Shown: positions 1,649 through 37,819, counted from the stretch's first letter. The stretch is DNA of 37,819 nucleotides from an uncultured Candidatus Saccharibacteria bacterium (GCA_964585065.1 CAZPCB010000004.1:1-37819); one strand, 5' to 3'. Numbers and translations are program-made. Notes: generated by a model from the letters alone, not told the origin.

Positions 1649-2548
1649 TTAAATCACATCTTGTCTTCGGAAATACAGATAAAGGCTGAGGGAAATAGTT
1701 ATAGCGATTCCAACTGCAATATAAAATGCTAAATCATTAGCAAGAAAATCCATTTTTGCATTAATACCTAATAATCCTATAAAGAGAGTTGATGGAGCTA
1801 AGGTAGTAGAGAAAGTAGTTAATGTCTTAATATTTTTATTTAACTTATGAGATAATAGTGTTTGATTGGTCTGATCAAAGGCCTCAATGGCTTCTTTTAA
1901 GTTTTCAGTGATATTCCAAATATGAATATTGGAAGACATTATATCGGTAATATTTTTTTGTTTAATAGAATTATCCGGGAAATATTGAGGGGTAAGCTTA
2001 AATGATGAATCAATCACAGATTTATGAAGTCTTATGGTTTTTCTAAAATCAAGAACATCTCTTTTTACAATAGATATTTCAGATATCATATTTTTTTCAT
2101 TTCCCTTGAAAATCTCCTCTTCAATAAAATCTATTTTCTCCGCAATACGATTAAGGGGTGTCATACATGCATTTAGCATAATATCAATAAGATATACATA
2201 TAATTCAACAGGACTGTCAAAACGAGAGGTTTTGCCCTCTATATGAGTTATTAAATCAGTAAGAAAATGCAACTCTACTTTATGCGAAGTAACAAAATAT
2301 CCTTGACTAAGAATACAGTCAATTTCAACTGCATTATTTTTACGTAACTGTTTATCATAAAGGGGGTAATGGAGTACTACTGCCATATAATCGGGAAATT
2401 CTTCTAATCGCTGAAGATGAATGGGGGATTGTAATATTTTTTCAGTAGAATTCTTGAGATTAATAATTGCATCTAAATTCTCAATATCACTAGGGATATC
2501 TGGATTAATATCTATCCAGACAAAATTTGAAAATTGAATTTTTTTCAT
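1649..2548 (-). CDS. corA: CorA/ZntB family divalent cation transporter
   Basis: WIDI N-terminus, QRLEEFPDY, long helical stalk and two C-terminal TM helices with a GIN signature in place of GMN. Confidence 0.9.
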   Translation of the reverse strand: MKKIQFSNFVWIDINPDIPSDIENLDAIINLKNSTEKILQSPIHLQRLEEFPDYMAVVLHYPLYDKQLRKNNAVEIDCILSQGYFVTSHKVELHFLTDLITHIEGKTSRFDSPVELYVYLIDIMLNACMTPLNRIAEKIDFIEEEIFKGNEKNMISEISIVKRDVLDFRKTIRLHKSVIDSSFKLTPQYFPDNSIKQKNITDIMSSNIHIWNITENLKEAIEAFDQTNQTLLSHKLNKNIKTLTTFSTTLAPSTLFIGLLGINAKMDFLANDLAFYIAVGIAITISLSLYLYFRRQDVI

Positions 2549-2609
2549 ATATATATTAAACTATACCTAGTATTAGTCTATCAAGTATATTGAAAAAGTC
2601 AATATTTAT

Positions 2610-3599
2610 ATGTTTAAAACTCAATATCATCAGGAATTACCTATCAGAATAGACAAATTCCTAGTAACTTTTCTTACCGATGTCTCAAGAGAATATGTAC
2701 AGGATTTAATTCATAATCAATTAGTATTAAAGAATGGTAGTATTGTAAAAAAACCAAAAGAATTAGTATCAAGGGGAGATATCATAGAGGTAGATACTAT
2801 TGAGCTCAAAAAACAACATTTTGCGTCAATATCTGAAGAAGAAAAGACAAATTTAACTAATAAGGTAAGAATTATATTCGAACATGAGGATTTCTTGATA
2901 ATAGATAAGCCAGCAGGATTACTCGTACATAAAACCAATAACCCAGAATCATATTCCCTGGTGGATATTATATTAAGGCAATATCCTGAAATACGAGGGG
3001 TACGAGACAAACACCAATCAAAAGAAGCTGAATTACAAGAGCGAGATGGTATCGTACATCGTATAGATAAAGATACCAGTGGAATTATAATAATGGCAAG
3101 AAATCAAGAAGCATTTGAAATATTTAAACAATTATTTCAAGATAGAAAAGTATATAAAGAATATATCTGTCTTGTAAGGGGGCATTTGCGAGAGCCTCAT
3201 GGTAATATTACATATCCAATTATCAGGTCCAAATTAGATCACACCAAGCGGGTAGCAGTAATTAATTCTAAACAGTCTGGTATAAAGGAAAGGACTGCGC
3301 ATACTGAATATTGGGTAGAGCAAGAATATACTCATGCAAGCTTGCTCAGAGTAGTAATACATACGGGTAGAACACATCAAATTCGAGTGCATATGAAAGC
3401 GATAGGGCATCCCATTATAGGAGATACATTATATGGGGGTAAACTTGAAGCACAGGGTGAAAATTCTCTCCCACGACAATTTCTGCATGCTCATAAAATA
3501 GCATTTACCTATAAAGGAAAAGAGTATAGCTTTATCTCAGATTTAGCACAAGATTTAAATAAGTATATTGCATCGCTACAATATACTTATCTACAATAG
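2610..3599 (+). CDS. rluD: RluA/RluD-family 23S rRNA pseudouridine synthase with N-terminal S4 domain
   Basis: RIDKFL S4 start, IDKPAGLLVH, catalytic HRIDKDTSG, TGRTHQIRVH, HPIIGDTLYG, RQFLHA. Confidence 0.9.
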   Translation: MFKTQYHQELPIRIDKFLVTFLTDVSREYVQDLIHNQLVLKNGSIVKKPKELVSRGDIIEVDTIELKKQHFASISEEEKTNLTNKVRIIFEHEDFLIIDKPAGLLVHKTNNPESYSLVDIILRQYPEIRGVRDKHQSKEAELQERDGIVHRIDKDTSGIIIMARNQEAFEIFKQLFQDRKVYKEYICLVRGHLREPHGNITYPIIRSKLDHTKRVAVINSKQSGIKERTAHTEYWVEQEYTHASLLRVVIHTGRTHQIRVHMKAIGHPIIGDTLYGGKLEAQGENSLPRQFLHAHKIAFTYKGKEYSFISDLAQDLNKYIASLQYTYLQ

Positions 3600-3617
3600 T
3601 CGAATAAGGAGTGTTTA

Positions 3618-3626: not shown

Positions 3627-3647
3627 AAATATATTAAATAATAGTAT

Positions 3648-4628
3648 ATGAAAAATAAGATATTAGTAACAGGGGGAGCTGGGTTTATGGGATCATATTT
3701 TATCAAATATTTGGTTGATAAACACCCTTATATTGAAATTGTAAATGTAGATTCTCTTACCTATGCTGGTAATTTACATAATCTTGATAGTATTGCAGAT
3801 AATGAACGATATACCTTTATAGAAGGAGATATTACTGATATTACAAAATTAGACTTAATTGTAAAAGAGCATCAAATTGAATTAATTGTTAATTTTGCAG
3901 CTGAGACACATGTAGATAATTCTATTCAATCTCCCCTTAAAGCTATTAATACCAATGTGATTGGAGTGGCTTCAATTTTAGAAATTGTACGCAAATATGA
4001 TATTGAATTATTGCAAGTGAGTACAGATGAAGTATTTGGTACTATTGATACAGGATCATTTAATGAGCATTCAGCCTTTGCACCTAATAGCCCCTATTCA
4101 GCAGGTAAAGCAGGGGGAGATTTATTATGCCGAGCTTATCATGAGACATATAATACTAAGGTTATTGTGACACATAGCTGTAATGTACTCGGACCAAATC
4201 AATATCCTGAAAAATTAATTCCTTTGGCTATTACCAATATATTGGAGAATAAAACAATTCCATTATATGGAGATGGATTAAATATAAGAGAATGGATTTA
4301 TGTAGAAGATCATTCTCGAGCTCTTGAATTCATTATTGAACATGGGGTATCAGGAGAAGTATATAATATTGGCACTGGTTATGAGCTTACTAATCTTGAT
4401 TTAATAACTCGATTATTACAACAATTAGGAAAAGATGAGAATGCTATTGAATATGTAACAGATAGATTAGGTCATGATAGGCGATATGCAATTGATTCTA
4501 CTAAATTAAGGCAATTAGGATGGAGTCCATCTTTTGACTTTGATACAGCACTTCGTAAGACCATTAATTGGTATCAGGATAATAAAGCATGGTGGGAGCC
4601 ATTAAAGTATAATAAGGAAGCAAAATAA
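3648..4628 (+). CDS. rfbB: dTDP-glucose 4,6-dehydratase
   Basis: GGAGFMGS, FAAETHVDNSI, STDEVFG, PNSPYSAGK, GPNQYPEKLIP, DRLGHDRRYAID. Confidence 0.95.
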   Translation: MKNKILVTGGAGFMGSYFIKYLVDKHPYIEIVNVDSLTYAGNLHNLDSIADNERYTFIEGDITDITKLDLIVKEHQIELIVNFAAETHVDNSIQSPLKAINTNVIGVASILEIVRKYDIELLQVSTDEVFGTIDTGSFNEHSAFAPNSPYSAGKAGGDLLCRAYHETYNTKVIVTHSCNVLGPNQYPEKLIPLAITNILENKTIPLYGDGLNIREWIYVEDHSRALEFIIEHGVSGEVYNIGTGYELTNLDLITRLLQQLGKDENAIEYVTDRLGHDRRYAIDSTKLRQLGWSPSFDFDTALRKTINWYQDNKAWWEPLKYNKEAK

Positions 4629-4630
4629 GT

Positions 4631-5701
4631 ATGAAAGGATTGATAGCAGCAGGAGGACGTGGTACGAGGTTGAGGCCAATTACAACTAATCGTAATAAAC
4701 ATAGTATACCACTTGCTAATAAAAGTATGATTGAACTTGCTGTAGAAAAATTAGCTGCAGCAGGTATATCTGAAATAGGTATTGTCATTAATGAGGGAGA
4801 TAGTGAAATGTCAGATATATTGGGAGATGGTTCTCAATATGGAGTTACTATTACCTATATCGAACAAAATGGAGGGGCTTTAGGAGTTGCTCATGTTATA
4901 TCTAGTGGGAAGGATTTTCTTGGAGATGATGATTTTGTATTTTATCTTGGGGATAATATTATTTTGGGAGAAGTGAGAGGATTTATTGATGCTTTTTATG
5001 AGCAAAAATTAAATGCATTATTAGCTCTGTCTCTCGTTAAAGATCCAGAACGATTTGGAGTTCCGCGTATTGAAAATAATCGTATTATAGAGGTAATAGA
5101 AAAGCCTCAGAATCCTCCTAGCCAATATGCGGTAGCAGGAATATATGTATATGATAAACATATACATACGATTATTGATGCCTTGTCTCCAAGTCCAAGG
5201 GGGGAGTATGAAATATCAGATGCTCATACAGAATTAATTCGCAAGGGTTTTGCTGTTGGTTATTCAGAGATTACGGGATGGTGGAAAGATACCGGTAAGC
5301 CCCAAGATTTATTAGAAGGGAATCAACTATTATTATCTCAGATTCATGAGTCGGATATCAAAGGAGATGTAGAAGATACAGTAACCATAGAAGGAATTGT
5401 CATAATAGAGGCAGGAGCTCAGATTAAAGGTAAAAGTTTTATAAGAGGTCCTGTGATTATTGGAAAGAATTCTCTTATTGAAAATAGTTATATTGGGCCT
5501 TTTACTTCATTGGGAGAAAATTGTCATATTGAGAATGCTGAAATAGAACATTCTCTTTTGATGAATACTATTACCATTAGTAGTTCTAAGCGTATAGTAG
5601 ATAGTATTTTAGGCAATAGTGTTATTATTACCGATAAAGAAGAAACTTTCCCTAAGGGGCATAAATTAGTAATTGGAGACAATTCACAAGTAGAATTATA
5701 A
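4631..5701 (+). CDS. rfbA: Glucose-1-phosphate thymidylyltransferase, long form with C-terminal hexapeptide repeats
   Basis: GGRGTRLRPIT, EKPQNPPSQYAVAGIY, SPRGEYEISDA, WWKDTGKP and a left-handed beta-helix tail. Confidence 0.9.
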   Translation: MKGLIAAGGRGTRLRPITTNRNKHSIPLANKSMIELAVEKLAAAGISEIGIVINEGDSEMSDILGDGSQYGVTITYIEQNGGALGVAHVISSGKDFLGDDDFVFYLGDNIILGEVRGFIDAFYEQKLNALLALSLVKDPERFGVPRIENNRIIEVIEKPQNPPSQYAVAGIYVYDKHIHTIIDALSPSPRGEYEISDAHTELIRKGFAVGYSEITGWWKDTGKPQDLLEGNQLLLSQIHESDIKGDVEDTVTIEGIVIIEAGAQIKGKSFIRGPVIIGKNSLIENSYIGPFTSLGENCHIENAEIEHSLLMNTITISSSKRIVDSILGNSVIITDKEETFPKGHKLVIGDNSQVEL

Positions 5702-5711
5702 AGAAATTATT

Positions 5712-6569
5712 ATGAAAATACGAAAAGCTATTATTACTGTTGCTGGATTTGGAACCAGATTCTTACCTGTAACCAAGGCTCAGCCAAAATCGATGTTACC
5801 TCTTGTAGATAAACCCATTGTACAGTATTTAGTAGAAGAGGCGGTGGCTGCTGGTATTGAGCAAATTATTTTTGTGACAGGTAAGGGAAAACGATCTATT
5901 GAGGATCATTTTGATTCTCATTTTGAATTAGAGTATCTCCTAGAACAAAAAGGGAAAGAAGAGGCTTTGGCCCAAGTTCGTGGTATATCTGATATGGCAG
6001 AATTTTTCTTTGTAAGACAGCGCTATGCACGAGGTAATGGAGACGCAGTACTTGCGACCAGAAGTTTTATTGGGGATGAACCATGTGCGGTATTATTCGA
6101 AGATGATATTGTAGACTCTGAAGTACCTGCAATACAGCAATTAATACAGGTATATAATAAGTATCAAGATCCCGTTATTGCTCTTACTCGAGTTCCTCAT
6201 GATGAGGTTTCAAAATATGGAATTATTGAGGGAACAGAAATGGGGACACGATTATTTGAAATTAATCAATTTGTAGAAAAACCAAAACCAACAGAAACAC
6301 AATCTGATCTTGCAGTAATTGGAAAATATATTATTACCCCCGCTATATTCGATGAATTAGAGAGATTAAAGGGTTCGGTAAAGGGGGAATTGGGTCTTGA
6401 TAATGCTTTTATTGAATTATTAAAGACAAAATCATTATATGGATATGAAATTGAAGGGAAACGATATGATTGTGGGGATAAACTTGGATATATACAGGCA
6501 ATGATTGATTTTAGCCTCAAACATCCTGAAATAGGGGAGGGAGTAAAGAAGCATATTCAACAAATATAG
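5712..6569 (+). CDS. galU: UTP--glucose-1-phosphate uridylyltransferase
   Basis: KIRKAIITVAGFGTRFLPVTKAQPKSMLPLVDKP, GKRSIEDHFD, VEKP, RYDCGDKLGY. Confidence 0.95.
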   Translation: MKIRKAIITVAGFGTRFLPVTKAQPKSMLPLVDKPIVQYLVEEAVAAGIEQIIFVTGKGKRSIEDHFDSHFELEYLLEQKGKEEALAQVRGISDMAEFFFVRQRYARGNGDAVLATRSFIGDEPCAVLFEDDIVDSEVPAIQQLIQVYNKYQDPVIALTRVPHDEVSKYGIIEGTEMGTRLFEINQFVEKPKPTETQSDLAVIGKYIITPAIFDELERLKGSVKGELGLDNAFIELLKTKSLYGYEIEGKRYDCGDKLGYIQAMIDFSLKHPEIGEGVKKHIQQI

Positions 6570-6599: not shown

Positions 6600-6630
6600 T
6601 ATACACATTATGTTATAAACAGCTATTATT

Positions 6631-7899
6631 ATGAAAATTACTCGAAAAAATCTTCCTAAATCACAAGTAGAACTTAATGTCACTATAGAGCAAGCTGAAA
6701 TGGTTACCTATATTGATAAAACAACAGCTCGACTTGCCAAACAAATTACTATTCCTGGATTTCGAAAAGGTGAAGCTCCAAAAGAATTAGTAGCTAAGCA
6801 AATTAGTGGACCAGAGCTATTAAATGAAACCATTGAATATGCTGTCAATGAATCCTATAAGAGCGCAATAAAAGATGAGAAATTATCTCCACTTGCCAAT
6901 CCGGAAATCAAATTATCTGAGAAAGAATCAAAAGATGGATTAGAATATACTGCTACTATTAGCATTATGCCAGAAATTGAGCTTCCAGATTACAAAAAAT
7001 TGGCAAGCAAAATAACTAAAGAAGCAGAAGATATTACGGATAAAGATGTAGAAGAGGCTAAAAAGTATTTACAAAAATCTCGTGGTACTCAAACTATTGT
7101 AGAGAGAAAGGCAAAAAAAGGAGACACTGTATCTATCAGCTATACATTAACAGTTGAGGGAAAAGAATTTGATAAATCTGAGGCAATGCCAGTAGAAATT
7201 GGTGCAGGGAAATTCATTCCTGGATTTGAAGATGAGGTAATTGGACTTAAGGCTGAAGATAAAAAAGAATTTGATATTCCCTTTCCAAAAGATTATCATA
7301 ATGTTGAATTAGCAGGAAAATTAGGACATTTTGCTATTGAAATCAAAGATGTACAAGAAATTATATTACCTGATTGGGATGAAACTTTTGCCAAAGAACT
7401 CAGCAATGGGGAGAAAACTATTGCGGATCTAGAACAAAGCCTTAAAGATGGACTTATTGCAGAGCGCAAGCAAGAAGTTCAAACTACATATACTCAAGCT
7501 ATAGTTGATGCTATATTAGCTAAGATACAAGTTGAGCTACCAGATGTATTAGTGCTTGCTGAACGCGATCAAATTATTCAAGAAATGGAGCAAAGAGCTC
7601 TTTATTCAGGACATACTCTGGATGATGCGCTGGCTCAGGCTGGGAAAACCCGAGAAGCATTATTAGAAGAAGCTCTGCCACAAGCTGAATCAAGAGTAAA
7701 ATTAATGCTTATCTTAAAAGCAATTACGGAAGAGCAAAAATTCATTGCCGATGAAAAAGAAGTAAAACATCGAATTCATCATATTCTTGAGAAATATTCA
7801 GAAAAGGAACAACAGCAAATTGATATGGAGCGACTTCGTATTATGGTATCAGCGGAGATAACCGATAAAATGGCTTTAGAGTATTTAGGGAATATATAA
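6631..7899 (+). CDS. tig: Trigger factor
   Basis: Ribosome-binding motif IPGFRKGEAP, FKBP domain (FIPGFEDEVIG) and C-terminal chaperone domain. Confidence 0.95.
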   Translation: MKITRKNLPKSQVELNVTIEQAEMVTYIDKTTARLAKQITIPGFRKGEAPKELVAKQISGPELLNETIEYAVNESYKSAIKDEKLSPLANPEIKLSEKESKDGLEYTATISIMPEIELPDYKKLASKITKEAEDITDKDVEEAKKYLQKSRGTQTIVERKAKKGDTVSISYTLTVEGKEFDKSEAMPVEIGAGKFIPGFEDEVIGLKAEDKKEFDIPFPKDYHNVELAGKLGHFAIEIKDVQEIILPDWDETFAKELSNGEKTIADLEQSLKDGLIAERKQEVQTTYTQAIVDAILAKIQVELPDVLVLAERDQIIQEMEQRALYSGHTLDDALAQAGKTREALLEEALPQAESRVKLMLILKAITEEQKFIADEKEVKHRIHHILEKYSEKEQQQIDMERLRIMVSAEITDKMALEYLGNI

Positions 7900-8061: not shown

Positions 8062-8063
8062 CT

Positions 8064-9488
8064 ATGAAATATATTATCCCGAATACCAGTTTGGCGATAC
8101 AATTAGGTATATTGAGCGGAGCCTTGCTGGGCTCTTTTTTTGTATTACAGTCAATATGGATATTATTGACTATTCCCTTTGTAATAGCAATATATTGGCT
8201 TTATTCAGATATACGACTTATGCTACTCGCTGCAACTCTGATTGGGTTTATTGGAGCTGGATATTATATCAATACTATTATTGATAATTATCATACAATT
8301 CAAGATAGTATCCCTAATCGTATAGAGAATACAGAAATCATTATTGAGTCAAGTCCACGCCTACAGGCTTTTGGCTATCAATATCGGGTATATATACCCA
8401 AATATAAGGCCAAGGTCTTTATGAGTATTACAGATGATAATTTGATATATGGTAAGCGAATTATCGTAAAGGGAAAAACTTCAATCCCAGAAGAAGAGGG
8501 GATTAGGAGATTTTTATTGGGAAGAGGAATTCACAGGTATATGACTATTTCAGATTATACAATACAAGCTAATAATAGCTGTAATATACAATGCCATATA
8601 ATGCGAAATATTATACAAATGCAAAAGGGAATTATTAATAAAATTGATTCAGCTTATCCCAATCAAGTAGGAGAATTCTTAAAAGGTATTCTTATAGGCT
8701 ATACAGATACATTACCAACCGAGATAAAGGAATCATTCAAAAAGACGGGAGTAAGCCATATTTTGGCTGTTTCAGGATATAATATGGCAATTATTATAGT
8801 ACTTGTATATCAGCAGCTCATTAATAGACAAATATATAGGCAATTTTCATTTTGGATTACTATTGCAGTTATGATAGTATTCACTCTTTTAACCGGGGCT
8901 GAGGCTTCTATTATGCGGGCGGGTATATTTGCTGTAATTATACTCTCAGCAGAACAATTACAAAGATATGTAGGAGGTATGAGACCCCTGACATTATGTG
9001 CTACTATGTTAGTATTAATAAATCCTCTGTATATTGGCTATGATATTGGATTTCAATTATCATTCCTGGCAGTAATAGGACTTATAGTATATGGGCAATT
9101 ATTCAAAACATATACGGAAGGAATACCGAGCCTTGGAATATTACCAATGATAGGGGAGACATTATTTGCTCAAATTTTAGTATTACCATTACTCATATAT
9201 TATTTTGGACAAATATCCCTTATATCTATTATCGCTAATATACTTATTGTGCCTATCATACCTTTTGCGATGGCTTGGGGTAGTATTACGGCTTTGATTT
9301 TACCATGGAGGATTTTTACCTATCCTCTTGTGATTATTATTCAATTAGTGCTCGCCATGAATCATTATTTAGCCTCTCTATCATGGGCTAGCATAACAGT
9401 TCCTCATATAACAGGCTATATGCTAATTATAATATACGCTATAATGGGATTAGGATATTGGATTTATATACATAAAAGGAAAATATGA
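8064..9488 (+). CDS. comEC: ComEC/Rec2 competence membrane channel (OB and Competence domains), lacking the MBL domain
   Basis: KTGVSHILAVSGYN, LTGAEASIMRAG, DIGFQLSFLAV, SIIANILIVP. Start moved from the GTG at 8025 (inside the tRNA) to the ATG at 8064. Confidence 0.9.
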   Translation: MKYIIPNTSLAIQLGILSGALLGSFFVLQSIWILLTIPFVIAIYWLYSDIRLMLLAATLIGFIGAGYYINTIIDNYHTIQDSIPNRIENTEIIIESSPRLQAFGYQYRVYIPKYKAKVFMSITDDNLIYGKRIIVKGKTSIPEEEGIRRFLLGRGIHRYMTISDYTIQANNSCNIQCHIMRNIIQMQKGIINKIDSAYPNQVGEFLKGILIGYTDTLPTEIKESFKKTGVSHILAVSGYNMAIIIVLVYQQLINRQIYRQFSFWITIAVMIVFTLLTGAEASIMRAGIFAVIILSAEQLQRYVGGMRPLTLCATMLVLINPLYIGYDIGFQLSFLAVIGLIVYGQLFKTYTEGIPSLGILPMIGETLFAQILVLPLLIYYFGQISLISIIANILIVPIIPFAMAWGSITALILPWRIFTYPLVIIIQLVLAMNHYLASLSWASITVPHITGYMLIIIYAIMGLGYWIYIHKRKI

Positions 9489-10324: not shown

Positions 10325-10356
10325 GATATAATATATTAACACTTATTTTTCATAGT

Positions 10357-11679: not shown

Positions 11680-11697
11680 ACTATTATCTTAACAATC

Positions 11698-26913: not shown

Positions 26914-26956
26914 TCTATAATCTCTGATATAATAAAGAAAATGAAATAAATATCAT

Positions 26957-28687: not shown

Positions 28688-28692
28688 TTATT

Positions 28693-29937: not shown

Positions 29938-29938
29938 T

Positions 29939-30421
29939 ATGAAAAGACAATATAAATCAGGATTTACATTAGTAGAAATCGTTCTAGTATTTGTATTAGT
30001 AGGAATTCTTATTGCAATAACCACACCTCTTGTAGTAGAGACAGTACAAAGAGCTGATTTAACCTCTGCACATGAATCTTTGTATAATGCCTTAACTAGA
30101 GCACAAAAATTATCACAAAGCCAAACTAATGGACAAGTATGGGGTGTTTGTCTTGATAATACCAATCATCGTTATATAATTGTTGCAGGAACCTGTAGCT
30201 CAAATGATAGGAATATTATATATGATGAAATCATAACTATTGCTCCTACTATCAGTATAGTAGGAAATGGTGGGAATAATATAGACTTTTCTCCTGTATC
30301 GGGATATAGCGATCCCAATGGTATTACTTTAACAAATGGGAGATTTAGTAAATTAATAAATGTAGACGGACAATTAATAGATAAAGACCCTATATCATTA
30401 GTCCCTCCACCAGCATTGTAA
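29939..30421 (+). CDS. Type IV minor pilin (FimU/GspH-like)
   Basis: KSG|FTLVEIVLVFVLVGILIAITTP. Start set to the ATG at 29939, just after the pilC stop. Confidence 0.85.
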   Translation: MKRQYKSGFTLVEIVLVFVLVGILIAITTPLVVETVQRADLTSAHESLYNALTRAQKLSQSQTNGQVWGVCLDNTNHRYIIVAGTCSSNDRNIIYDEIITIAPTISIVGNGGNNIDFSPVSGYSDPNGITLTNGRFSKLINVDGQLIDKDPISLVPPPAL

Positions 30422-30482: not shown

Positions 30483-32420
30483 TTATAATCCATAATAACT
30501 CTTGATATTAATTCGAATTGAATCAGAATTAGGACTATTATTATAGTCTAATATTTCAGAACAAAAGCCACTGAGACGTATATAAGATCCCGCTCCTCTT
30601 CCAATAATAAACTGACTAGAAGCAATTGGATTCCCCGATGCATAATAGAGATTTAAACTACTAAGATTATCTGATGAGCTGGTAGCAGCAGTCGTAGATC
30701 CATTGAGATAATAGGTAGTAAATAAATCACTTCCCAATGTTAAGGTGGCATAAGTTATATCTCTTGCAATAAATGATTGCGTATATCCAGATCTTCTACC
30801 TACCCAAAATGTCGCAGGATTCCCACTACTAAAAGCATTTATTGATGTTAATTCATCACCCCCATCAAACTGTAAGGATGGTCTATTATTCTGTATAACT
30901 ATACCATTAACCCCATCAATAATTTTAGGCTGGGCGAGGTTAGTGGTCTGAATGGCATTATTACTATTCCCCGATTGATCATACCAGATGGATACATATC
31001 CATCTCCTGTATTGGCATCAGCCACAGTTTGCTGATAGGGCTTAGGTGCACTAGTGAGAGATGTATTGATATGCCTCTGTCCTCCCCAGACAAAGATAGA
31101 ATCAGCAGCAGAGGCTACATTTACTGTCTCTAATCTTGTTGAGGAGTTAGAATTAACTATAGCAAGAGTAATATTTCCAGCTCCATTAGTAGTAGCGGTA
31201 GCAGAGAGGGATATTCTATACCATCCATTTTCAACTGAGGTTATAGTAGACTGACCTGTAATAATTCCAGAAGAAGAACCTAAAGTGCCATTACTGAGAT
31301 TATAATTTTGATAAGAGGTATTCCCTGGAAAGGCAGCTCCATTAGGAGCTAATTGTACAAAATTATAACCATTATTAGCCTTAACATAATAGGAATCGGT
31401 ATAAATTGTACCATCTGTTAAAGTGGTATCTTTACTGATAGATCTTGCAGTATCAGGGGATCCAGCATTTAAATTTATTTTTTCAGCAGTATTTGTTCCA
31501 TTAGGTGCAACTGTATTATCGGCGACTGTTGTGAGATTAGGGAACACCCATCCTAATGGAATAGTAATATTTTCAGATTGAGTAAGGAAATTCTGATATC
31601 CTACAAAATTCTGGAGGGAGACACTATCAAAATCTCCAGATTTAGTAAAGCCAATATCACTTTCTGCTTGATCGGCGCCCCTATCTCGTCTTACTCTAAC
31701 CGCTGCTCCCGTGTACCCATCAGAGAATTTATTAGAGCTACTATTCACACCAGATAATTTGCGTAAACTATATGCTACACCATCATTATTATTAGGACTC
31801 TGCCCAGCTGGAATAATTGGATTATCATTGAGAACAGGATTAAATGATGTTTTTTTGGCTTGTTCAATAGGAATAACAGTTTCAAAAGCTTTTTCAGCAT
31901 CATATTCATTCCCACTGAGTATCGGCTTTTTATATACGAGAGTAAATTTTACTTTGATCGCTTGCATTATTCCATTGTGGTTACTCTGATCCTGATTATT
32001 AATTTGTTCAAATGATAAACTAGAAGCTAAAACTTGAATATTAGTGGGGTTGATTTTTGTAACAGGAACACTACTAGCAGTATATATAATATCAGCAGCA
32101 TTTTGAGTAATACTAGATGGTTCTACTATAAGATACCTATTGTCTTGCATAATAAGTGAAGGAGATGTTCCACCACCTACAATTGGTGTTATAATAGAAC
32201 GTTGATTAGTTATATTACTATTAATATAACTCTGAATTTGACGAATAATATTTTCTCCTGTTTGATTGAGTTCATTATTTACTCTAAAGGTAGTGGAAAG
32301 ACGAGTAATTTGAATAAAAGAAAAAGCCACAATAACCAAAGTTATACCACCAACAACAACATATAATAATATTTCTAAAAGAGTGAATCCTGAGTATTTT
32401 TTCATATTAATAAGCGCCAT
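30483..32420 (-). CDS. PilW/GspJ-like minor pilin fused to a large jelly-roll domain with an inserted phage-fibre-like module
   Basis: YSG|FTLLE prepilin motif and about 185-aa pilin domain, then AYSLRKL...AVRVRR...DIGF, NFLTQSE...APNGTNTAEKI...NGWYRIS...VWGGQ, and WYDQSGN...NNRPSLQFDG. Confidence 0.8.
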   Translation of the reverse strand: MALINMKKYSGFTLLEILLYVVVGGITLVIVAFSFIQITRLSTTFRVNNELNQTGENIIRQIQSYINSNITNQRSIITPIVGGGTSPSLIMQDNRYLIVEPSSITQNAADIIYTASSVPVTKINPTNIQVLASSLSFEQINNQDQSNHNGIMQAIKVKFTLVYKKPILSGNEYDAEKAFETVIPIEQAKKTSFNPVLNDNPIIPAGQSPNNNDGVAYSLRKLSGVNSSSNKFSDGYTGAAVRVRRDRGADQAESDIGFTKSGDFDSVSLQNFVGYQNFLTQSENITIPLGWVFPNLTTVADNTVAPNGTNTAEKINLNAGSPDTARSISKDTTLTDGTIYTDSYYVKANNGYNFVQLAPNGAAFPGNTSYQNYNLSNGTLGSSSGIITGQSTITSVENGWYRISLSATATTNGAGNITLAIVNSNSSTRLETVNVASAADSIFVWGGQRHINTSLTSAPKPYQQTVADANTGDGYVSIWYDQSGNSNNAIQTTNLAQPKIIDGVNGIVIQNNRPSLQFDGGDELTSINAFSSGNPATFWVGRRSGYTQSFIARDITYATLTLGSDLFTTYYLNGSTTAATSSSDNLSSLNLYYASGNPIASSQFIIGRGAGSYIRLSGFCSEILDYNNSPNSDSIRINIKSYYGL

Positions 32421-33501
32421 ATTTAGTATTGAGATATATATTAATTTTGTCTAAGTCTGTATCACTTAATTTTTTACTAAAAACAAGAATTTCCGCAATA
32501 TCACCAGAGAAAAATCCATTTACCCCACTTTGTTGAGCCCCCACAATAATAGGGGTGTCAGTAGAAGTGATATCAGTAAAAGATGTAAGAGCATTTGTCG
32601 GGGGGAGTATATTATTGATATTAAGGCTACTTGCTGTTGATGGAACCCAGCGAGCTGTAATAATACGAAGATTCGTATTATTGGCAAATGATACTGTTTC
32701 ATTTACTTGTTCTGCTGTTGCAAGATCAGTTGCAATAAAGTCATCATTTTGTAAACGCCATTCCCTTTTATTGTCTGTAGTATTAAATTTTGAAATATAG
32801 GTTTGATTGGTTGAAGCTGAATTAGATTTTCCCGCAACAATTACAGTAAGTCCACCCGTACTAGCTGTATTATTATTATGTATAGAAGTTGCAGTTCCTG
32901 TCAAAAAATCATCTATTCCATCAAATCGTAAGGCAGGTCTATTATTAATAGCATTAGTAACTAGGGTCGGTGCAAGAGTAGGGCTTGTTGCTACTTGAGC
33001 AAAAGTAATAAGATCATCAGTTGCATTTTTGATACTAGTAACGGGCTGTCCATTATTACTCTCTGCTCTATCAGCTTTCAGCCATAATCTTAATGCCAAA
33101 GGATCTATTGTATAGGGGTTATCAGAAGGGGCTGATTCAATAAACTTTTGATATTCAATAATAATTTTAGGATTAATTTGTGTTATTTTGGTCTCAAGAA
33201 TTTTATTACCTCTTTTTACTTGAATTAACCTCTCCCCATTACCAGTCCCCGTAACAGTATATACTCGACATTTTTCAGTTGGAAATGTTTCATCCCCCCC
33301 ATAAAACTTATATAATTTAAGTTTTGCTAATACTTTTTCTGTACAATTACGAGCTTGAGACTCATCTTGGGCAGCATCAGCTACATCAATATTTGTTTTA
33401 GCAACTTGTGTACTAGAACTAAGCGCACTAAGAGCTAAAGCTACTCCTACAGCACAAACTATAATAGTTAATAATAATACGCTAAATCCAGAACGATACA
33501 T
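32407..33501 (-). CDS. PilX/GspK-like minor pilin fused to a LamG-like jelly-roll domain
   Basis: RSG|FSVLL (no Glu5, typical of PilX/GspK), ARNCTEKVLAKL, then LRLWLKAD...NNRPALRFDGIDDFL...GDIAEILVFSKKLS...YLNTKYG. Confidence 0.8.
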   Translation of the reverse strand: MYRSGFSVLLLTIIVCAVGVALALSALSSSTQVAKTNIDVADAAQDESQARNCTEKVLAKLKLYKFYGGDETFPTEKCRVYTVTGTGNGERLIQVKRGNKILETKITQINPKIIIEYQKFIESAPSDNPYTIDPLALRLWLKADRAESNNGQPVTSIKNATDDLITFAQVATSPTLAPTLVTNAINNRPALRFDGIDDFLTGTATSIHNNNTASTGGLTVIVAGKSNSASTNQTYISKFNTTDNKREWRLQNDDFIATDLATAEQVNETVSFANNTNLRIITARWVPSTASSLNINNILPPTNALTSFTDITSTDTPIIVGAQQSGVNGFFSGDIAEILVFSKKLSDTDLDKINIYLNTKYGAY

Positions 33502-33526
33502 ATATACTTTTGTTTATCATATAGTT

Positions 33527-33559: not shown

Positions 33560-33581
33560 AAATAAAGTAAAAATATACTAT

Positions 33582-34349
33582 ATGAATTCACAACAAAGAC
33601 AAGTAAAACAAATTCTCATTGCGACTGCCTATGCTATTATTCTCTCCAGCATAGTATTCTTGATTATGATTACTTTTTTCCCGAAAAAACCAGCTCCTAT
33701 TATTGTAGAACAGCCTAAGCCACAAGCATTACAAATTACTCAGTATAATAGTATTCCTCTTGGCAATGGATATTCAGATTATTGGGCTGAAATTAATAAT
33801 CCTAATGATAATTTTGGAGCCAAAAGTCTTGACTACACCTTTATACTCAAAAATTCAGCAGGAGATATTCAGCGTAAAACAGGGACTACTTTTATTTTAC
33901 CGGGGGATAAAAAACGTTATATTCTCTTATTAAATTATCCAGGGAATTATACATTACAAGGGTTTGAATTATCTAATAATCCAGTATGGGCTCAATTATC
34001 AAGATTTAATTTACCAGAATTAAGCAAAAAAAATATAACAGTAGGGATATCAGATAAAGCAGGAAAAGCTTTTACTGTAGGAGGAGTATTAACCAATACC
34101 AGTGAATTTAATCTCAAAAATATTCAAGTGATTGCAATATTAACAGATGATACCAATACTATTATAGGAGTAAATGAAACATTAATAAGAGATGTTTTGA
34201 AAACTGAATCAAGAGATTTTGAATTAACTTGGGATTCTAATATTCCTAATGCCTCAGCTGCTAATACCACAATATTAACACAAAGTAATGTCCTTGATAC
34301 AGAAGAGTTATTAATACAATTACAACAAAAGCCAGTATTTGATAGATAA
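33582..34349 (+). CDS. Membrane-anchored extracytoplasmic protein with Ig-like (FxLYD-like) domains
   Basis: N-terminal TM helix, Pro-rich linker, AEINNPN, VGGVLTNTS...VIAILTD...IIGVNET. Confidence 0.65.
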   Translation: MNSQQRQVKQILIATAYAIILSSIVFLIMITFFPKKPAPIIVEQPKPQALQITQYNSIPLGNGYSDYWAEINNPNDNFGAKSLDYTFILKNSAGDIQRKTGTTFILPGDKKRYILLLNYPGNYTLQGFELSNNPVWAQLSRFNLPELSKKNITVGISDKAGKAFTVGGVLTNTSEFNLKNIQVIAILTDDTNTIIGVNETLIRDVLKTESRDFELTWDSNIPNASAANTTILTQSNVLDTEELLIQLQQKPVFDR

Positions 34350-34352
34350 GAT

Positions 34353-35474
34353 ATGTTGAGATTATTATACCGCATAGACTGGGTGCTTGTCATACCAACT
34401 ATACTTGTTTCAATAATGGGGATAATTACCTTGGTAAGTTTTTATATACATTCAGTTGAAATTGTAACTGTGGGACTTATCATTAAACACAGTATTTCAA
34501 TTATATTGGGTCTTGTCATTGCTTTTATATTATCAAATATTGATTATAGGGGCTTGTCATCACTTATAAGGCCATTATTTTTTACCATTACGGGATTATT
34601 GGTACTGGTATTATTAATTGGTAATACCGTAAATGGAGCAAAAAGTTGGTTTTCTTTAGGTGGTTTTAATATTCAACCTGCAGAACTTGCAAAAATTGTG
34701 GTAATTATTATTATTGCTCAATATTTTAATAGATATCATTATAGACTTAATAATTTTTGGACTATTATTGCTTCATTATTACCAATTAGTATTATTGGAG
34801 CATTAATTTTGATACAGCCAGATTTTGGAACCTTTTCTATTATTGGTTCTATTTGGCTCGGGATGATTATATTTGGTGGGGTGCGCTTTAAACATATTAT
34901 GATATTATTTTCGATAGGGATTATAACTCTTATCAGTTTATGGACTTGGTTTTTAGAAGAATATCAAAAGCAAAGGATTTTAACATTTTTTGATCCAACA
35001 TTAGATCCTTTGGGTAGTGGATATAATACATTGCAGGTAATTAAATCGGTGAGTGCCGGAGGATGGCTCGGGAATGCAAGTCAACTAATTACCGTACCTG
35101 AAATTCATACCGATTTTATTTTTGCAGGTTTTGCACAGCAATGGGGATTTATTGGTATATCGGTATATTTTATTCTCATGATATGTATATTGGGAAGAAT
35201 GATATATATCGGACTGAAAACTCAGGATGGTTTTGCTCGAATGATTATATTGGGAGTGATATTGTGTTTTTTGATACAAATACTCATTAATATCGGTATG
35301 AATGTTGGTATATTACCAATTACCGGTATTACCTTGCCCTTTATGAGTTATGGAGGAAGTTCAATGATAGTTTCTTGGATATTAATAGGATTATTATTAT
35401 CAATCAAAAATAATCAGGAGGCAAAGGGAACTATTTTTATGAGGGATAATCAAGATATGTATTTGATACCGTGA
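34353..35474 (+). CDS. rodA: SEDS-family peptidoglycan polymerase (RodA/FtsW)
   Basis: IDW, GAKSWF...IQPAELAKI, QPDFGT, YQKQRILTFFDP..DPLGSGYN, VPEIHTDFIFA, PITGITLPFMSYGGSS. Confidence 0.9.
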   Translation: MLRLLYRIDWVLVIPTILVSIMGIITLVSFYIHSVEIVTVGLIIKHSISIILGLVIAFILSNIDYRGLSSLIRPLFFTITGLLVLVLLIGNTVNGAKSWFSLGGFNIQPAELAKIVVIIIIAQYFNRYHYRLNNFWTIIASLLPISIIGALILIQPDFGTFSIIGSIWLGMIIFGGVRFKHIMILFSIGIITLISLWTWFLEEYQKQRILTFFDPTLDPLGSGYNTLQVIKSVSAGGWLGNASQLITVPEIHTDFIFAGFAQQWGFIGISVYFILMICILGRMIYIGLKTQDGFARMIILGVILCFLIQILINIGMNVGILPITGITLPFMSYGGSSMIVSWILIGLLLSIKNNQEAKGTIFMRDNQDMYLIP

Positions 35475-35608
35475 TACCCCGTAATGTAAGTCTTTCAGAG
35501 GCTCCAAGTTTTGGAAAAGCAATTCATGATTATGCACCATTGTCTAAAGGAGCATTTGCCTATCGTAAATTAGCTCAAGAGCTTATTAATATTACCTCAA
35601 AAGGATAA
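35450..35608 (+). pseudogene. parA: 3'-terminal remnant of a ParA/Soj ATPase overlapping the end of rodA
   Basis: Frame reads SRYVFDTVIPRNVSLSEAPSFGKAIHDYAPLSKGAFAYRKLAQELINITSKG*, matching the Soj/ParA C-terminus. An in-frame TAA lies at 35447 and the Walker A region is absent. Confidence 0.85.
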
Positions 35609-35733
35609 TACTCTAAAAAAGTATAGGAACAACCTGAATAAAAATAAAAAACTGAATAAGATACCCCCCTATACAAAGATAGAAAAGAGTGATAGTCTTA
35701 AAAAAAGTAAATGTAAAATAAAAAAGATATACT

Positions 35734-37819
35734 ATGGGATATATACTCTTTAATATAGAGCAAGATCCTGTTATAGGATTTCAAATTGATCAACAAAAAA
35801 AACAAGAATCTAAGAGAAGAAACAGAATAATTGTTATTATTGCTATTCTTCTTGTTGTATTATTGATGGTGGGGATTTTTAATGGAATTATACCATCCTT
35901 ATTTAAGGGACAGAGTAATAAAGTACCTCTAGTAGATAATTCTAGACCACCTAAGGTTTTGTCGCCTACAAAACCTGATTCTCCTGTATTTAATACTCAA
36001 GATACTGCTATACAACAGTCTTTATCTGAACTTGCTATAAATGATAATATATCACCCGTAAAGAAATTAACAAGTTTACCAAAGTACAAATCAGTAGTAA
36101 ACCCTAGTATAGTAATTCCTACTATACCGAATACTCCAACAATCCCGAATACTCCAACAATCCCAATTATCCCTCCAGATACAGATAATGGAGAAGATGA
36201 TGATATAGATAATCCCTTGAACACAGCTACAGGAATACGAGATAGAGATTTTTATACAGGAGGACAGAGTGTTGAATTAGTTTCGAATCCAAATATTTAC
36301 ATTGATATTGAAAACTTTGATTTTCAAATATCACAAACCACTGTTTTAGCAATACAGAGTGACGGTAATATATTAGTAAATACATTTAATACTGAGTCTT
36401 ATATCAATAATATATTTAAAATGAATCAGGATGGGGATATAGATGAAAGTTTTGATTCAGGGGATATAAGTTGTTGTGTATTTGATATAAAGGAACAGTC
36501 AGATGGAAAGATATTAGTCGGAGGAGATTTTAATGAGTATCGAGGAGAATCAACTAATGGGATAGTTAGACTCAATAGTGATGGAAGCAGAGATACAAGT
36601 TTTAATATAGGGACAGGATTTGGTGGGAATGTAAATAATGGCGACTCTGTCAATACTTTAGCCATACAGGAAGATGGCAAGATAATAGTAGGGGGTAATT
36701 TTACTAGCTATAATGGTGTGGAGGCAAATAAGATTATACGACTCAATAGTGATGGAAGTAGAGATCTTAGTTTTGATATAGGGACAGGATTTCATAGTGG
36801 TGATGGTAGGGTCTTCGAATTAGCTATTCAAACAGATGGAAAGATATTGATAGGAGGAGAGTTTTGGAATTATAAAGGACAGTCTGCAAATGGAATAATA
36901 AGACTCAATTCAGATGGAAGTAGAGATCTTAGCTTTGATATACAAACAGGATTTGGGGGAGATGCAGTAACAAGTATAGTAGTACAAAGTGATGGAAATA
37001 TATTGGTAGGAGGAGATTTTCGAGCATATAAAAATAATTCAGTAAACAGATTGATTAGGTTAACAAGTGATGGTGAAACAGATCTCTCATTTAATGCAGA
37101 TATGTCTTTACCAAATATAAATAAATATTTTTATATACAAGATATTTATGAACAAAATGATGGCACATTATTTATCTCATTTCAGGGTGCCGTTGATACT
37201 ATTCAGGATTTTGGAAGGGGTTTTGTAAAACTAAATAGTAATGGAAGTAGAGATGCAAGTTTTAGTTTAGATTCAGCAAGAGTACGTCCTTTTGGTTTCC
37301 CTAACATTCCTAATAAAATTTTACTAGTTAATAACACTATTTTTACAGGAGGATTCATTGTAACAGTTGATAATTTATATAATGCTGATGGAGAATTGAT
37401 TGATATGCAGATGATAGATTTTGAAGACGAAGATTGGATTTATGACTTTTTTACTTATGGAGGAGCAATTGACTTAACTTTTGGAAGTATTCTGAAATTT
37501 AATTTGGATGGTAGTAGATCTACTGACTTTGAAAGTGAATGGTCACCTAGATTTAAAATTACCTACAAAATTTCTTTTGACTCAGATGTCAGTGTAGTTA
37601 CAACTCAAAACGATGGAAAGATATTGGTAGGAGGATATTTTAGCAATTATAAGGGAGAAGCAGCTAACAGAATAATTAGACTCAATACAGATGGAAGCCG
37701 AGATACAAGTTTTGATGTAGGGGGAGGATTTGATGGAAATGTAAATACTATAACCATACAGTCAGATGGAAAGATATTGGTAGGAGGATATTTTAGCAAT
37801 TATAAGGGAGAAGCAGCTA
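35734..37819 (+). CDS. Membrane-anchored delta-60-repeat (beta-propeller) surface protein, 3'-truncated by the window and missing from the ORF track
   Basis: I translated frame 1 by hand from the ATG at 35734 to the window end with no stop. TM helix (IIVIIAILLVVLLMVGIF), Pro/Thr-rich linker (PTIPNT repeats), then many Q.DGKILVGG.F...RLN.DGSRD.SF repeats. Confidence 0.9.
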   Translation, partial: MGYILFNIEQDPVIGFQIDQQKKQESKRRNRIIVIIAILLVVLLMVGIFNGIIPSLFKGQSNKVPLVDNSRPPKVLSPTKPDSPVFNTQDTAIQQSLSELAINDNISPVKKLTSLPKYKSVVNPSIVIPTIPNTPTIPNTPTIPIIPPDTDNGEDDDIDNPLNTATGIRDRDFYTGGQSVELVSNPNIYIDIENFDFQISQTTVLAIQSDGNILVNTFNTESYINNIFKMNQDGDIDESFDSGDISCCVFDIKEQSDGKILVGGDFNEYRGESTNGIVRLNSDGSRDTSFNIGTGFGGNVNNGDSVNTLAIQEDGKIIVGGNFTSYNGVEANKIIRLNSDGSRDLSFDIGTGFHSGDGRVFELAIQTDGKILIGGEFWNYKGQSANGIIRLNSDGSRDLSFDIQTGFGGDAVTSIVVQSDGNILVGGDFRAYKNNSVNRLIRLTSDGETDLSFNADMSLPNINKYFYIQDIYEQNDGTLFISFQGAVDTIQDFGRGFVKLNSNGSRDASFSLDSARVRPFGFPNIPNKILLVNNTIFTGGFIVTVDNLYNADGELIDMQMIDFEDEDWIYDFFTYGGAIDLTFGSILKFNLDGSRSTDFESEWSPRFKITYKISFDSDVSVVTTQNDGKILVGGYFSNYKGEAANRIIRLNTDGSRDTSFDVGGGFDGNVNTITIQSDGKILVGGYFSNYKGEAA
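37612..37819 (+). repeat. Identical 55-bp segments of adjacent delta-60 repeats (37612-37666 and 37765-37819)
   Basis: gatggaaagatattggtaggaggatattttagcaattataagggagaagcagcta occurs twice, 153 bp apart; the second copy runs to the window end. Confidence 0.9.

What the first reader, a model, noticed from the sequence alone, without database searches (positions are those of the whole stretch)
2546..35736. No Shine-Dalgarno motifs, but U at position -1 of almost every start codon
Seen: of 35 protein starts assigned in the window, 33 have T immediately before the start. The exceptions are the TAATG-overlap pilin at 24481 and the receiver at 26548; infC fits only if AUU at 12489 is used. None has an AGGAG-like motif and the upstream regions are A/U-rich. 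Caveat: six starts were re-assigned by me. Established: Bacteroidota initiate without SD and favour A at -3. Inference: a distinct UAUG initiation context, possibly pairing with A37 of initiator tRNA.
Basis: partly seen in the sequence, partly recalled or inferred. Interest (0 to 1): 0.6.

Follow-up and report, generated by a model that had tools for sequence, protein, structure and literature searches.

The report
Four-base start signal UAUG in Paceibacteria
In this tiny uncultured lake bacterium (Paceibacteria, candidate phyla radiation) almost every gene starts with UAUG rather than a ribosome-binding site plus AUG. The few conserved exceptions, the gene for initiation factor IF3 among them, suggest that the U before the AUG is read as part of the start signal.

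Summary

On the four main contigs:
- T at -1 is 81% at first-ATG starts, 83% at unambiguous starts and 95% at homology-validated starts.
- It is 93-96% in operon-internal genes.
- The comparison values are 33% T in upstream DNA and 49% / 27% before internal in-frame / out-of-frame ATGs.
- Position -1 carries 0.71 bit; no other upstream position exceeds 0.04 bit.
- Shine-Dalgarno (SD) motifs are not enriched, although the 16S rRNA keeps CCUCC.
- Stop-start spacings that would put a purine at -1 (TAATG, TAAATG) are nearly absent. They are the commonest spacing in SD-using relatives.

The trait is shared by the genus and family, including members at 42-48% GC. It fades across the phylum as SD use rises.

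There are two conserved exceptions:
- infC has A(-1)AUG in 16 of 16 genus and family genomes. Most sampled sister families show no AUG there and probably use a non-AUG start.
- hup (HU) keeps a strong SD and lacks U(-1).

Best reading: SD-independent initiation in which U(-1) extends the pairing with initiator tRNA (A37), a mechanism shown in E. coli. The exact contact is not proven. The scan noted UAUG starts before in other Patescibacteria genomes. I found no paper describing it.

The parts
2546..2549 (-). TATG start of corA-like gene (1649-2548)
2609..2612 (+). TATG start, pseudouridine synthase
3647..3650 (+). TATG start, NAD-dependent sugar epimerase/dehydratase
4630..4633 (+). TATG start two bases after the upstream stop (TAAGTATG), nucleotidyl transferase
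5711..5714 (+). TATG start, nucleotidyl transferase
6630..6633 (+). TATG start, trigger factor (Pfam model position 1 at residue 1)
8063..8066 (+). TATG start of comEC, re-assigned; lies two bases after tRNA-Val (7988-8062)
9484..9487 (+). TATG start, metallo-beta-lactamase fold protein
10356..10359 (+). TATG start, TrmB-like regulator
11677..11680 (-). TATG start of rplT (L20)
11887..11890 (-). TATG start of rpmI (L35)
12469..12472 (-). AATG start of infC (IF3): conserved exception, A at -1 in 16/16 genus and family genomes
13331..13334 (-). TATG start of smpB
13423..13426 (+). TATG start, glycosyltransferase
14596..14599 (+). TATG start of ftsZ, re-assigned from TTG 14543; the tubulin domain then begins at residue 13
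17208..17211 (-). TATG start of uvrC, re-assigned from GTG 17231
17292..17295 (+). TATG start, PspC-domain protein
17777..17780 (+). TATG start two bases after the upstream stop (TAAATATG)
18729..18732 (+). TATG start one base after the upstream stop (TAATATG)
19129..19132 (+). TATG start one base after the upstream stop (TAATATG)
21638..21641 (+). TATG start
22344..22347 (+). TATG start of grpE, re-assigned; an ATG at 22336 with A(-1) is the alternative
22847..22850 (+). TATG start two bases after the upstream stop
23938..23941 (+). TATG start
24480..24483 (+). AATG start of a pilin (TAATG overlap): exception; the start is confirmed by the N-methylation motif at residues 3-25
24919..24922 (+). 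TATG start
26547..26550 (+). AATG start of a response-regulator receiver: exception; the domain begins at residue 5
26956..26959 (+). TATG start
28692..28695 (+). TATG start
29938..29941 (+). TATG start of a pseudopilin, re-assigned; one base after the upstream stop (TAATATG)
32418..32421 (-). TATG start
33499..33502 (-). TATG start
33581..33584 (+). TATG start
34352..34355 (+). TATG start
35733..35736 (+). TATG start

Best explanation
In this Paceibacteria genus and family the start signal is in effect the tetranucleotide UAUG, placed in an unstructured, A/U-rich stretch. SD/anti-SD pairing is not used as the general signal.

The U at -1 is under strong purifying selection as a determinant of translation initiation. 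This part is shown.

The most likely mechanism is inferred. U(-1) forms a fourth base pair with the unmodified A37 of initiator tRNA. That stabilises the P-site codon-anticodon helix enough to pass IF3 proofreading without an SD anchor, including when ribosomes re-initiate a few bases after an upstream stop.

Genes that need a different regime deviate in a conserved way. infC keeps A(-1)AUG, a 'poor' start that would give IF3 autoregulation; E. coli and sister families use a non-AUG codon for this. hup uses a strong SD instead of U(-1).
For: 1. Size and specificity. T(-1) is 81-95% against a 33% background. Position -1 carries 0.71 bit and all other upstream positions carry less than 0.04 bit.
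2. The signal acts at the level of translation. It is strongest in operon-internal genes: 93% at gaps of 0-5 nt (n=121) and 96% at gaps of 6-15 nt (n=74). It is 70-83% in leading genes.
3. Gene spacing is reshaped. Same-strand gaps of -1 and 0, which would put a purine at -1, occur 3 and 0 times. Gaps of +1, +2 and +3 occur 34, 24 and 30 times, and the sampled +1 cases read TAA-T-ATG. T(-1)-rich relatives have none at -1 or 0. SD-rich Patescibacteria have 32 at -1.
4. It is not composition. Family members at 42-48% GC keep 82-89% T(-1). In G136 CATG is as common as TATG overall, yet starts are 17 T against 1 C.
5. Across 83 loci of the phylum T(-1) falls as SD use rises (Spearman rho -0.39; -0.43 for pyrimidine).
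6. infC has A(-1)AUG in 16/16 genus and family genomes, in at least five different upstream contexts; three have an in-frame stop directly before the ATG. In 9 of 13 other families of the class no AUG precedes the IF3 domain, only AUA, AUU or UUG; the other four have an AUG, three of them with A at -1. In five independent T(-1)-rich lineages infC has G(-1)AUG once, A(-1)AUG once and no AUG twice; one has a normal UAUG.
7. hup keeps GAAAGG(A/G)GGTG 8-9 nt upstream and a non-T at -1 in the 11 genus relatives and 3 family genomes that have a match, as in this genome. SD and U(-1) therefore look interchangeable, and the retained anti-SD is explained.
8. The initiator tRNA has A37. U(-1):A37 pairing was shown by compensatory tRNA mutants in E. 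coli (PMC10018350). A37 stacks on the A1:U36 pair in 30S initiation complexes (PMC5037330).
Against: - No direct evidence shows that A37 is the partner. It is invariant, so nature offers no covariation.
- Three other Patescibacteria lineages have much C at -1 (23-45% C) with A37 unchanged.
- UAUG alone cannot define starts. About 3,900 internal UAUGs exist on coding strands. Low structure (-2.9 against -6.2 kcal/mol), local AUG depletion and coupling to termination must also contribute.
- The starts are predictions. No transcript or ribosome data exist for this organism.
- The infC argument rests on analogy with IF3 autoregulation in E. coli.
Confidence: 0.6

Rival explanations
1. Position -1 is read by the ribosome or by IF3 rather than by the tRNA. 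A pocket at the P/E-site boundary would favour a pyrimidine (U in this family). Candidates are 16S G926, on which the -1 base stacks in tRNA-free pre-initiation complexes, uS7/uS11, or the IF3 C-terminal domain.
For: - Sampled SD-poor Patescibacteria lineages have mixed U and C at -1 (G002 51% T and 33% C; G020 54% and 23%) or mainly C (G078 45% C, 17% T). Those whose initiator tRNA I could read (G020, G078, G082) keep A37.
- Hussain et al. 2016 see the -1 base stacked on G926 with IF3 nearby.
- The infC and hup exceptions fit this reading equally well.
Against: - The 16S residues around the P/E-site codon are identical to E. coli: the 790 loop, G925-927, 1399-1405 and 1492-1505. Nothing lineage-specific is seen there.
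- Stacking on a purine would favour purines, but purines are the bases avoided (inference).
- In this family the preference is for U specifically, even at 48% GC.
Confidence: 0.25
2. The T is the -1 base of transcription start sites (pyrimidine at -1, purine at +1) of leaderless mRNAs. Earlier follow-ups of this scan proposed leaderless mRNAs for other Paceibacteria.
For: - Earlier scan notes report -10 boxes 6-9 nt before the ATG in other Parcubacteria.
- Leading genes with such a box here have 88% T(-1).
- A pyrimidine at -1 would fit RNA polymerase preference (own knowledge).
Against: - T(-1) is highest (93-96%) in operon-internal genes that lie 0-15 nt after an upstream stop.
- -10-like hexamers show no peak at 6-9 nt (5-7% against a 3-7% background). 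They show a broad hump at 23-30 nt, which implies leaders of about 16-23 nt.
- The -10 signal, which should be stronger than a start-site signal, is almost invisible in the profile.
Confidence: 0.04
3. Polycistronic RNAs are cut between U(-1) and A(+1) by an endoribonuclease. The cut yields leaderless monocistronic mRNAs, as in mitochondrial-style punctuation.
For: - The signal is strongest inside operons.
- comEC starts 2 nt after a tRNA and infC 20 nt after tmRNA.
- Relatives appear adapted to leaderless initiation.
Against: - Thousands of internal UAUG and UA sites would also be cut.
- No candidate nuclease was identified.
- The exceptions (hup with an SD, infC) are explained more simply by initiation strength.
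Confidence: 0.04
4. Artefact of base composition, codon bias or biased start assignment.
For: - The genome is 34% GC.
- T is common at third codon positions: internal in-frame ATGs have 49% T(-1).
Against: - Only position -1 deviates from the upstream background.
- The bias rises to 95% with homology-validated starts.
- It persists in family members at 42-48% GC.
- The spacing of adjacent genes is altered independently of any choice among ATGs.
- SD-rich relatives run through the same caller give 15-43% T(-1).
Confidence: 0.02

Closest known systems
Extended ('quadruplet') codon-anticodon pairing between U(-1) and A37 of tRNA-fMet in E. coli (Hollerer and Jeschek 2023, PMC10018350) and in Chlamydomonas chloroplasts (Esposito et al. 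2003, as cited there)
   Same: The position (-1), the favoured base (U) and an initiator tRNA with A37. The effect is independent of mRNA folding.
   Different: In E. coli it is a modest modulator on top of SD. Here it is close to obligatory (81-95% of genes) and is the only strongly informative upstream position. It reshapes gene spacing and has conserved regulatory exceptions. Pairing with A37 is not demonstrated here.
SD-independent initiation of Bacteroidia with Kozak-like upstream adenines (Baez et al. 2019, PMC6847099; Jha et al. 2021, PMC7797042)
   Same: No SD enrichment although the anti-SD is retained. Weak structure and AUG depletion around starts. A rare gene keeps a strong SD: rpsU in Flavobacteria, hup here.
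   Different: No A(-3) or A(-6) enrichment. Only a weak A at -11/-10. The informative base is U(-1). Whether the anti-SD is sequestered by bS21/bS18/bS6 is unknown.
Autoregulation of start-site stringency factors through a poor start of their own gene: infC AUU in E. coli (own knowledge), and eIF5 through uORFs whose AUGs lie in poor context (title and abstract of PMC3326321; eIF1's own poor-context AUG is my recollection)
   Same: The gene for the factor that rejects weak initiation complexes has a conserved start that departs from the genome's norm.
   Different: In this family the departure is the -1 base of an AUG (A instead of U), not the codon itself. Repression by IF3 is inferred, not tested.
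SD-scarce or anti-SD-lacking CPR lineages (Tsurumaki et al. 2022, PMC9297842; PMC10783764)
   Same: The same phylum. SD is not used.
   Different: Those papers report loss of the anti-SD motif or scarcity of SD. I found no -1 context described in the passages I searched. This genome keeps the anti-SD.

Membership tests
U(-1):A37 extended codon-anticodon initiation | Initiator tRNA carries A at position 37 | tested here: met
   C1:116096-116168(-) has a 1:72 mismatch, three G-C pairs in the anticodon stem and the loop CUCAUAA.
U(-1):A37 extended codon-anticodon initiation | U specifically favoured at -1 of true starts over internal AUGs | tested here: met
   81-95% against 49% and 27%. The preference is U-specific in GC-richer family members.
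U(-1):A37 extended codon-anticodon initiation | Complementarity between position 37 and -1 decides the effect (compensatory change) | tested here: inconclusive
   Lineages with 23-45% C at -1 (G020, G078) and G082 still have A37. No natural variant of position 37 was available. tRNA mutants are needed.
Bacteroidia-type SD-independent initiation | No SD enrichment while 16S keeps CCUCC | tested here: met
   5.3% against 4.6% in shuffles. The 3' end reads GGATCACCTCCTTTCT.
Bacteroidia-type SD-independent initiation | Adenine enrichment at -3, -6, -12 and -13 | tested here: not met
   A(-3) 43%, A(-6) 51%, A(-12) 45% against a 44% background. Only A(-11/-10) reaches 54-55%.
Bacteroidia-type SD-independent initiation | Anti-SD sequestered by bS21/bS18/bS6 | not testable with these tools
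   A divergent bS21 candidate exists (19.9 bits, below the cut-off). A structure would be needed.
Leaderless-mRNA genomes (GeneMarkS-2 group C type) | -10 box 6-9 nt before the ATG in a large share of leading genes | tested here: not met
   5-7% per position against a 3-7% background, with a hump at 23-30 nt. TATACT peaks at 23-28 nt.
Leaderless-mRNA genomes (GeneMarkS-2 group C type) | Start-proximal signal confined to operon-leading genes | tested here: not met
   T(-1) is 93-96% in operon-internal genes and 70-83% in leading genes.
IF3 autoregulation through a suboptimal infC start | The infC start departs from the genome's normal start signal and the departure is conserved | tested here: met
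   A(-1)AUG in 16/16 genus and family genomes. Four of five independent T(-1)-rich lineages have a purine at -1 or no AUG.
IF3 autoregulation through a suboptimal infC start | Non-AUG start codon (AUU in E. coli) | tested here: not met
   This family uses AUG. The AUU at 12489 is excluded by in-frame stops in relatives. In 9 of 13 sister families no AUG precedes the IF3 domain.
IF3 autoregulation through a suboptimal infC start | Translation of infC repressed by IF3 | not testable with these tools
   Needs an assay.

The most novel reading that the evidence does not exclude
A bacterial lineage has moved from the SD-plus-AUG system to a four-base start codon, UAUG, read by the anticodon loop of initiator tRNA and proofread by IF3. 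The -1 base has taken over regulatory roles that other bacteria assign to the codon itself: infC autoregulation through A(-1)AUG in place of AUU. SD pairing survives only as a special channel for a few genes such as hup.
Probability: 0.45. Interest if true: 0.8.

Novelty: new variant of a known kind. Interest (0 to 1): 0.68.

Why it matters
1. It would be the clearest natural case in which the long-debated U(-1):A37 'extended anticodon' interaction is the main start-site context rather than a small modulator. It comes with built-in natural controls (infC, hup, gene spacing).
2. It shows a second solution to life without SD, different from the upstream adenines of Bacteroidia.
3. It has practical use. 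A TATG rule would improve start-codon annotation in Paceibacteria, where RBS-based gene callers have nothing to use. Loss of T(-1) together with presence of an SD flags foreign or mis-binned DNA.
4. It suggests how translational coupling works in very compact CPR operons, through spacings such as TAA-U-AUG.

Tried and rejected
- AUU start for infC (12489). Rejected: relatives have in-frame stops, and the ATG and the N-terminus MSQQ.. are conserved.
- Leaderless promoters as the cause. Rejected for this genome.
- Composition or codon bias, and CATG avoidance. CATG is under-represented here (O/E 0.64). It is not under-represented in family members G132, G135 and G136, which keep T(-1).
- 37/-1 covariation. 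Initiator tRNAs of lineages with much C at -1 all have A37. Uninformative.
- 16S differences at the P/E site. None at the 790 loop, G926, C1400 or 1492-1505. The h31 loop (966/967) differs from E. coli, but it varies across the phylum without relation to T(-1).
- Non-AUG starts as a test of the extra pair. At most about 12 candidate GTG/TTG starts with mixed -1 bases; too few to read.
- A hidden upstream motif. k-mer enrichment finds only promoter-like TATACT and a weak ATAA ending at -10.
- prfB frameshift site as a test of anti-SD use. prfB is a single ORF without a frameshift.
- Literature. Seven full-text searches found no description of a UAUG context in Patescibacteria.

Full report
WHAT THE DNA IS. 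The window is contig C4:1-37819 of an 854-kb, 34% GC, 28-contig genome. Close relatives found through the trigger-factor gene are named Candidatus Paceibacteria / Parcubacteria MAGs from lakes. The window carries ordinary housekeeping genes: corA, tig, comEC, rplT, rpmI, infC, smpB, ftsZ, uvrC, grpE and type IV pilus genes. It also carries tRNA-Val, tRNA-Glu and a tmRNA.

CHECK OF THE OBSERVATION. I listed the 35 starts of the window. 32 are TATG and 3 are AATG. Of the 30 ORFs whose first candidate start is an ATG, 27 have T(-1) without any re-assignment. The five ORFs that open with GTG or TTG each have a tATG start (four as the first usable ATG; grpE at its second), and these starts fit the Pfam domain positions. 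For example, the FtsZ domain then begins at residue 13, and the pseudopilin methylation motif lies at residues 5-28.

Genome-wide I called 811 genes with a codon-usage model. On the four main contigs T(-1) is:
- 502/621 (81%) at first-ATG starts;
- 194/234 (83%) at starts with no alternative within 30 codons;
- 60/63 (95%) at starts whose N-termini align colinearly with proteins of relatives outside the genus.

Upstream DNA has 33% T. Internal in-frame ATGs have 49% T(-1) and out-of-frame ATGs 27% (Fisher p about 8e-51). Position -1 carries 0.71 bit and every other upstream position carries less than 0.04 bit. A(-3) is not enriched. SD cores occur in 5.3% of upstream regions against 4.6% in shuffles, although the 16S rRNA ends GGATCACCTCCTTTCT.

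THE SIGNAL ACTS IN TRANSLATION, NOT TRANSCRIPTION. Earlier follow-ups of this scan described other Parcubacteria as rich in leaderless genes. That reading would make T(-1) the -1 base of transcription start sites. Here the opposite pattern holds:
- T(-1) is 93% (n=121) in genes 0-5 nt after an upstream same-strand stop.
- It is 96% (n=74) at gaps of 6-15 nt.
- It is 78-83% at larger gaps and 70% for divergent genes.
- -10-like hexamers show no peak 6-9 nt before the ATG. They show a broad hump at 23-30 nt, and TATACT peaks at 23-28 nt, so short leaders are the rule.

An independent signature is the spacing of adjacent genes. Gaps of -1 (TAATG) and 0, which would place A or G at -1, occur 3 and 0 times. 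Gaps of +1, +2 and +3 occur 34, 24 and 30 times, and the sampled +1 cases read TAA-T-ATG. In loci of T(-1)-rich relatives gaps of -1 and 0 are also absent. In SD-rich Patescibacteria run through the same script, gap -1 is the commonest class (32 cases).

WHAT ELSE MARKS STARTS. True TATG starts lie in weak structure. The mean folding energy of -25..+25 is -2.9 kcal/mol, against -6.2 at internal TATGs. ATG is depleted in the 40 nt after the start (10.8 against 19.0 per kb). There is a weak A preference at -11/-10, with ATAA ending at -10, in both leading and internal genes. Non-ATG starts are rare.

DISTRIBUTION. I took 20-kb stretches around rplN from 80 genomes of the phylum and ran the same caller.
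- Genus: T(-1) 0.86-1.0.
- Family: 0.82-0.93, including members at 42% and 48% GC.
- Other families of the class: 0.43-1.0.
- Rest of the phylum: 0.14-0.91.

T(-1) and pyrimidine(-1) fall as SD use rises (Spearman rho -0.39 and -0.43 over 83 loci). Kin are not independent, so these p-values overstate. SD-rich lineages have 15-43% T(-1).

Some SD-poor lineages use mixed pyrimidines or mostly C: G002 51% T and 33% C; G020 54% and 23%; G078 17% and 45%. The initiator tRNAs I could read in G020, G078 and G082 all have A37. In the family of this genome the preference is for U specifically. In G136 CATG and TATG are equally common overall, yet starts are 17 T against 1 C.

TWO CONSERVED EXCEPTIONS THAT SPEAK TO FUNCTION.

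infC. In relative G131 (locus L006) an in-frame TAA separates that region from the ATG. In G122, G124 and G135 a stop codon lies directly before the ATG. The N-terminus MSQQ.K..SK.NQRIN is conserved from the ATG onwards. All 16 genus and family genomes have A(-1)ATG, in at least five different upstream contexts. At an A(-1) frequency of 0.11, five independent cases have p about 2e-5. In 9 of 13 other families of the class no ATG precedes the IF3 domain, only ATA, ATT or TTG; the other four have an ATG, three of them with A at -1. Non-AUG starts are the E. coli solution, where the AUU start gives IF3 autoregulation (own knowledge). In five independent T(-1)-rich lineages infC has G(-1)ATG, A(-1)ATG, no ATG (twice) and a normal TATG (once). 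The simplest reading is that in these genomes a purine at -1 makes an AUG 'non-canonical' to the initiation machinery. This parallels start-stringency factors of eukaryotes that regulate themselves through AUGs in poor context (eIF5, PMC3326321).

hup. The HU gene (PF00216, 111 bits) has GAAAGG(A/G)GGTG 8-9 nt before its ATG and G, C or A at -1 in this genome and in the 11 genus relatives and 3 family genomes with a match. HU genes of other families of the class lack the SD. The retained anti-SD is therefore used, and a strong SD appears to replace the need for U(-1).

MECHANISM. What is shown: U(-1) is selected at the level of translation initiation, is lineage-specific, and trades off with SD. 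What is inferred: the reader of the base.

The best candidate is A37 of initiator tRNA. The tRNA here has the loop CUCAUAA. Compensatory A37 mutants in E. coli shift the favoured -1 base (PMC10018350). A37 stacks on the A1:U36 pair in 30S initiation complexes (PMC5037330).

The alternative is a ribosomal or IF3 pocket. The -1 base stacks on G926 in tRNA-free complexes, and lineages with much C at -1 keep A37. Against this, the 16S residues around the P/E-site codon are unchanged from E. coli. The h31 loop differs, but it varies without relation to the trait. Stacking should favour the purines, which are in fact avoided.

I put the translation-level determinant at about 0.9, and the A37 pair as its basis at about 0.55.

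NOVELTY. SD scarcity and loss of the anti-SD in Parcubacteria are published (PMC9297842, PMC10783764). U(-1):A37 pairing is published for E. coli and chloroplasts. 'C signals immediately upstream' of starts are published for some phyla (PMC5397173). I found no paper that describes a near-invariant UAUG start context, its effect on gene spacing, or the infC and hup exceptions in Patescibacteria. The scan itself noted UAUG starts in two other genomes. I therefore class it as a new variant of a known kind.

LIMITS. All starts are computational. Sampling of relatives is 10-20 kb per genome, mostly the ribosomal-protein cluster. Genus members are close kin. No expression data exist.

Noticed in passing
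L165:1498-1800 (G000 C1:82556-82858, minus strand): The HU gene (hup) has a perfect SD, AAAGGAGGTG, 9 nt before an ATG that lacks T(-1). The arrangement is conserved in the genus and family and absent in sister families. An earlier first-reader note (e1-1145612) describes an SD with the same sequence and spacing and calls the gene rpsU; it may be the same gene. Pfam says HU (111 bits).
   Followed up: yes
L199:1235-1850 (G000 C1:265634-266249): A second gene has the same GAAAGGAGGTG motif, here before a GTG start with A(-1). It lies directly after prmC and encodes a 196-aa protein with no Pfam family above the cut-off.
   Followed up: partly
G000 contigs C6, C10, C14, C15, C20, C22, C23 (outside the window): Small contigs have low T(-1) (34/82 overall) and many AGGAG-type SDs. 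They are probably phage, mobile or mis-binned DNA. On the main contigs there are low-T(-1) runs at C1:208052-212837, C1:246992-250489 and C2:150985-157708.
   Followed up: partly
window 12472-12491 and 8062-8066: The infC ATG lies 20 nt after the 3' end of the tmRNA gene, and the comEC ATG lies 2 nt after tRNA-Val. There is no room for a promoter, so these mRNAs are probably made by co-transcription and RNA processing.
   Followed up: no
L207:1468-2541 (G000 C2:26015-27088, minus strand): prfB (RF2) is one uninterrupted ORF without the usual programmed +1 frameshift site. Its ATG has A at -1, so it is another translation-factor gene with an atypical start.
   Followed up: partly
G000 main contigs (genome-wide): The palindrome CATG is under-represented (O/E 0.64; 0.45 in relative G134) but not in G132, G135 and G136. 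This suggests a lineage-variable CATG-specific restriction system.
   Followed up: no
L001:2035-2065 (16S rRNA, minus strand): The loop of 16S helix 31 reads GAUAUUAAGCG, so E. coli G966/C967 are A/U here. This loop touches position 34 of the P-site tRNA. It varies widely across Patescibacteria without relation to T(-1).
   Followed up: yes
G000 C8:134-209 and C2:162262-162334: ARAGORN reports a tRNA-Ile with anticodon UAU (no lysidine route needed). It also reports a tRNA-like gene with a two-base 'anticodon' call.
   Followed up: no
L065, L142-L148 (genome G078); L050, L129-L135 (genome G002): Other SD-poor Patescibacteria prefer C, or C and U, at -1, and G078 also prefers C at -2. This is a different flavour of start context with the same A37 initiator tRNA.
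   Followed up: partly
window-wide, positions -13 to -10 of starts: There is a weak secondary signal. A is 54-55% at -11/-10, and ATAA ending at -10 is two to three times over background. It is present in both leading and operon-internal genes.
   Followed up: partly
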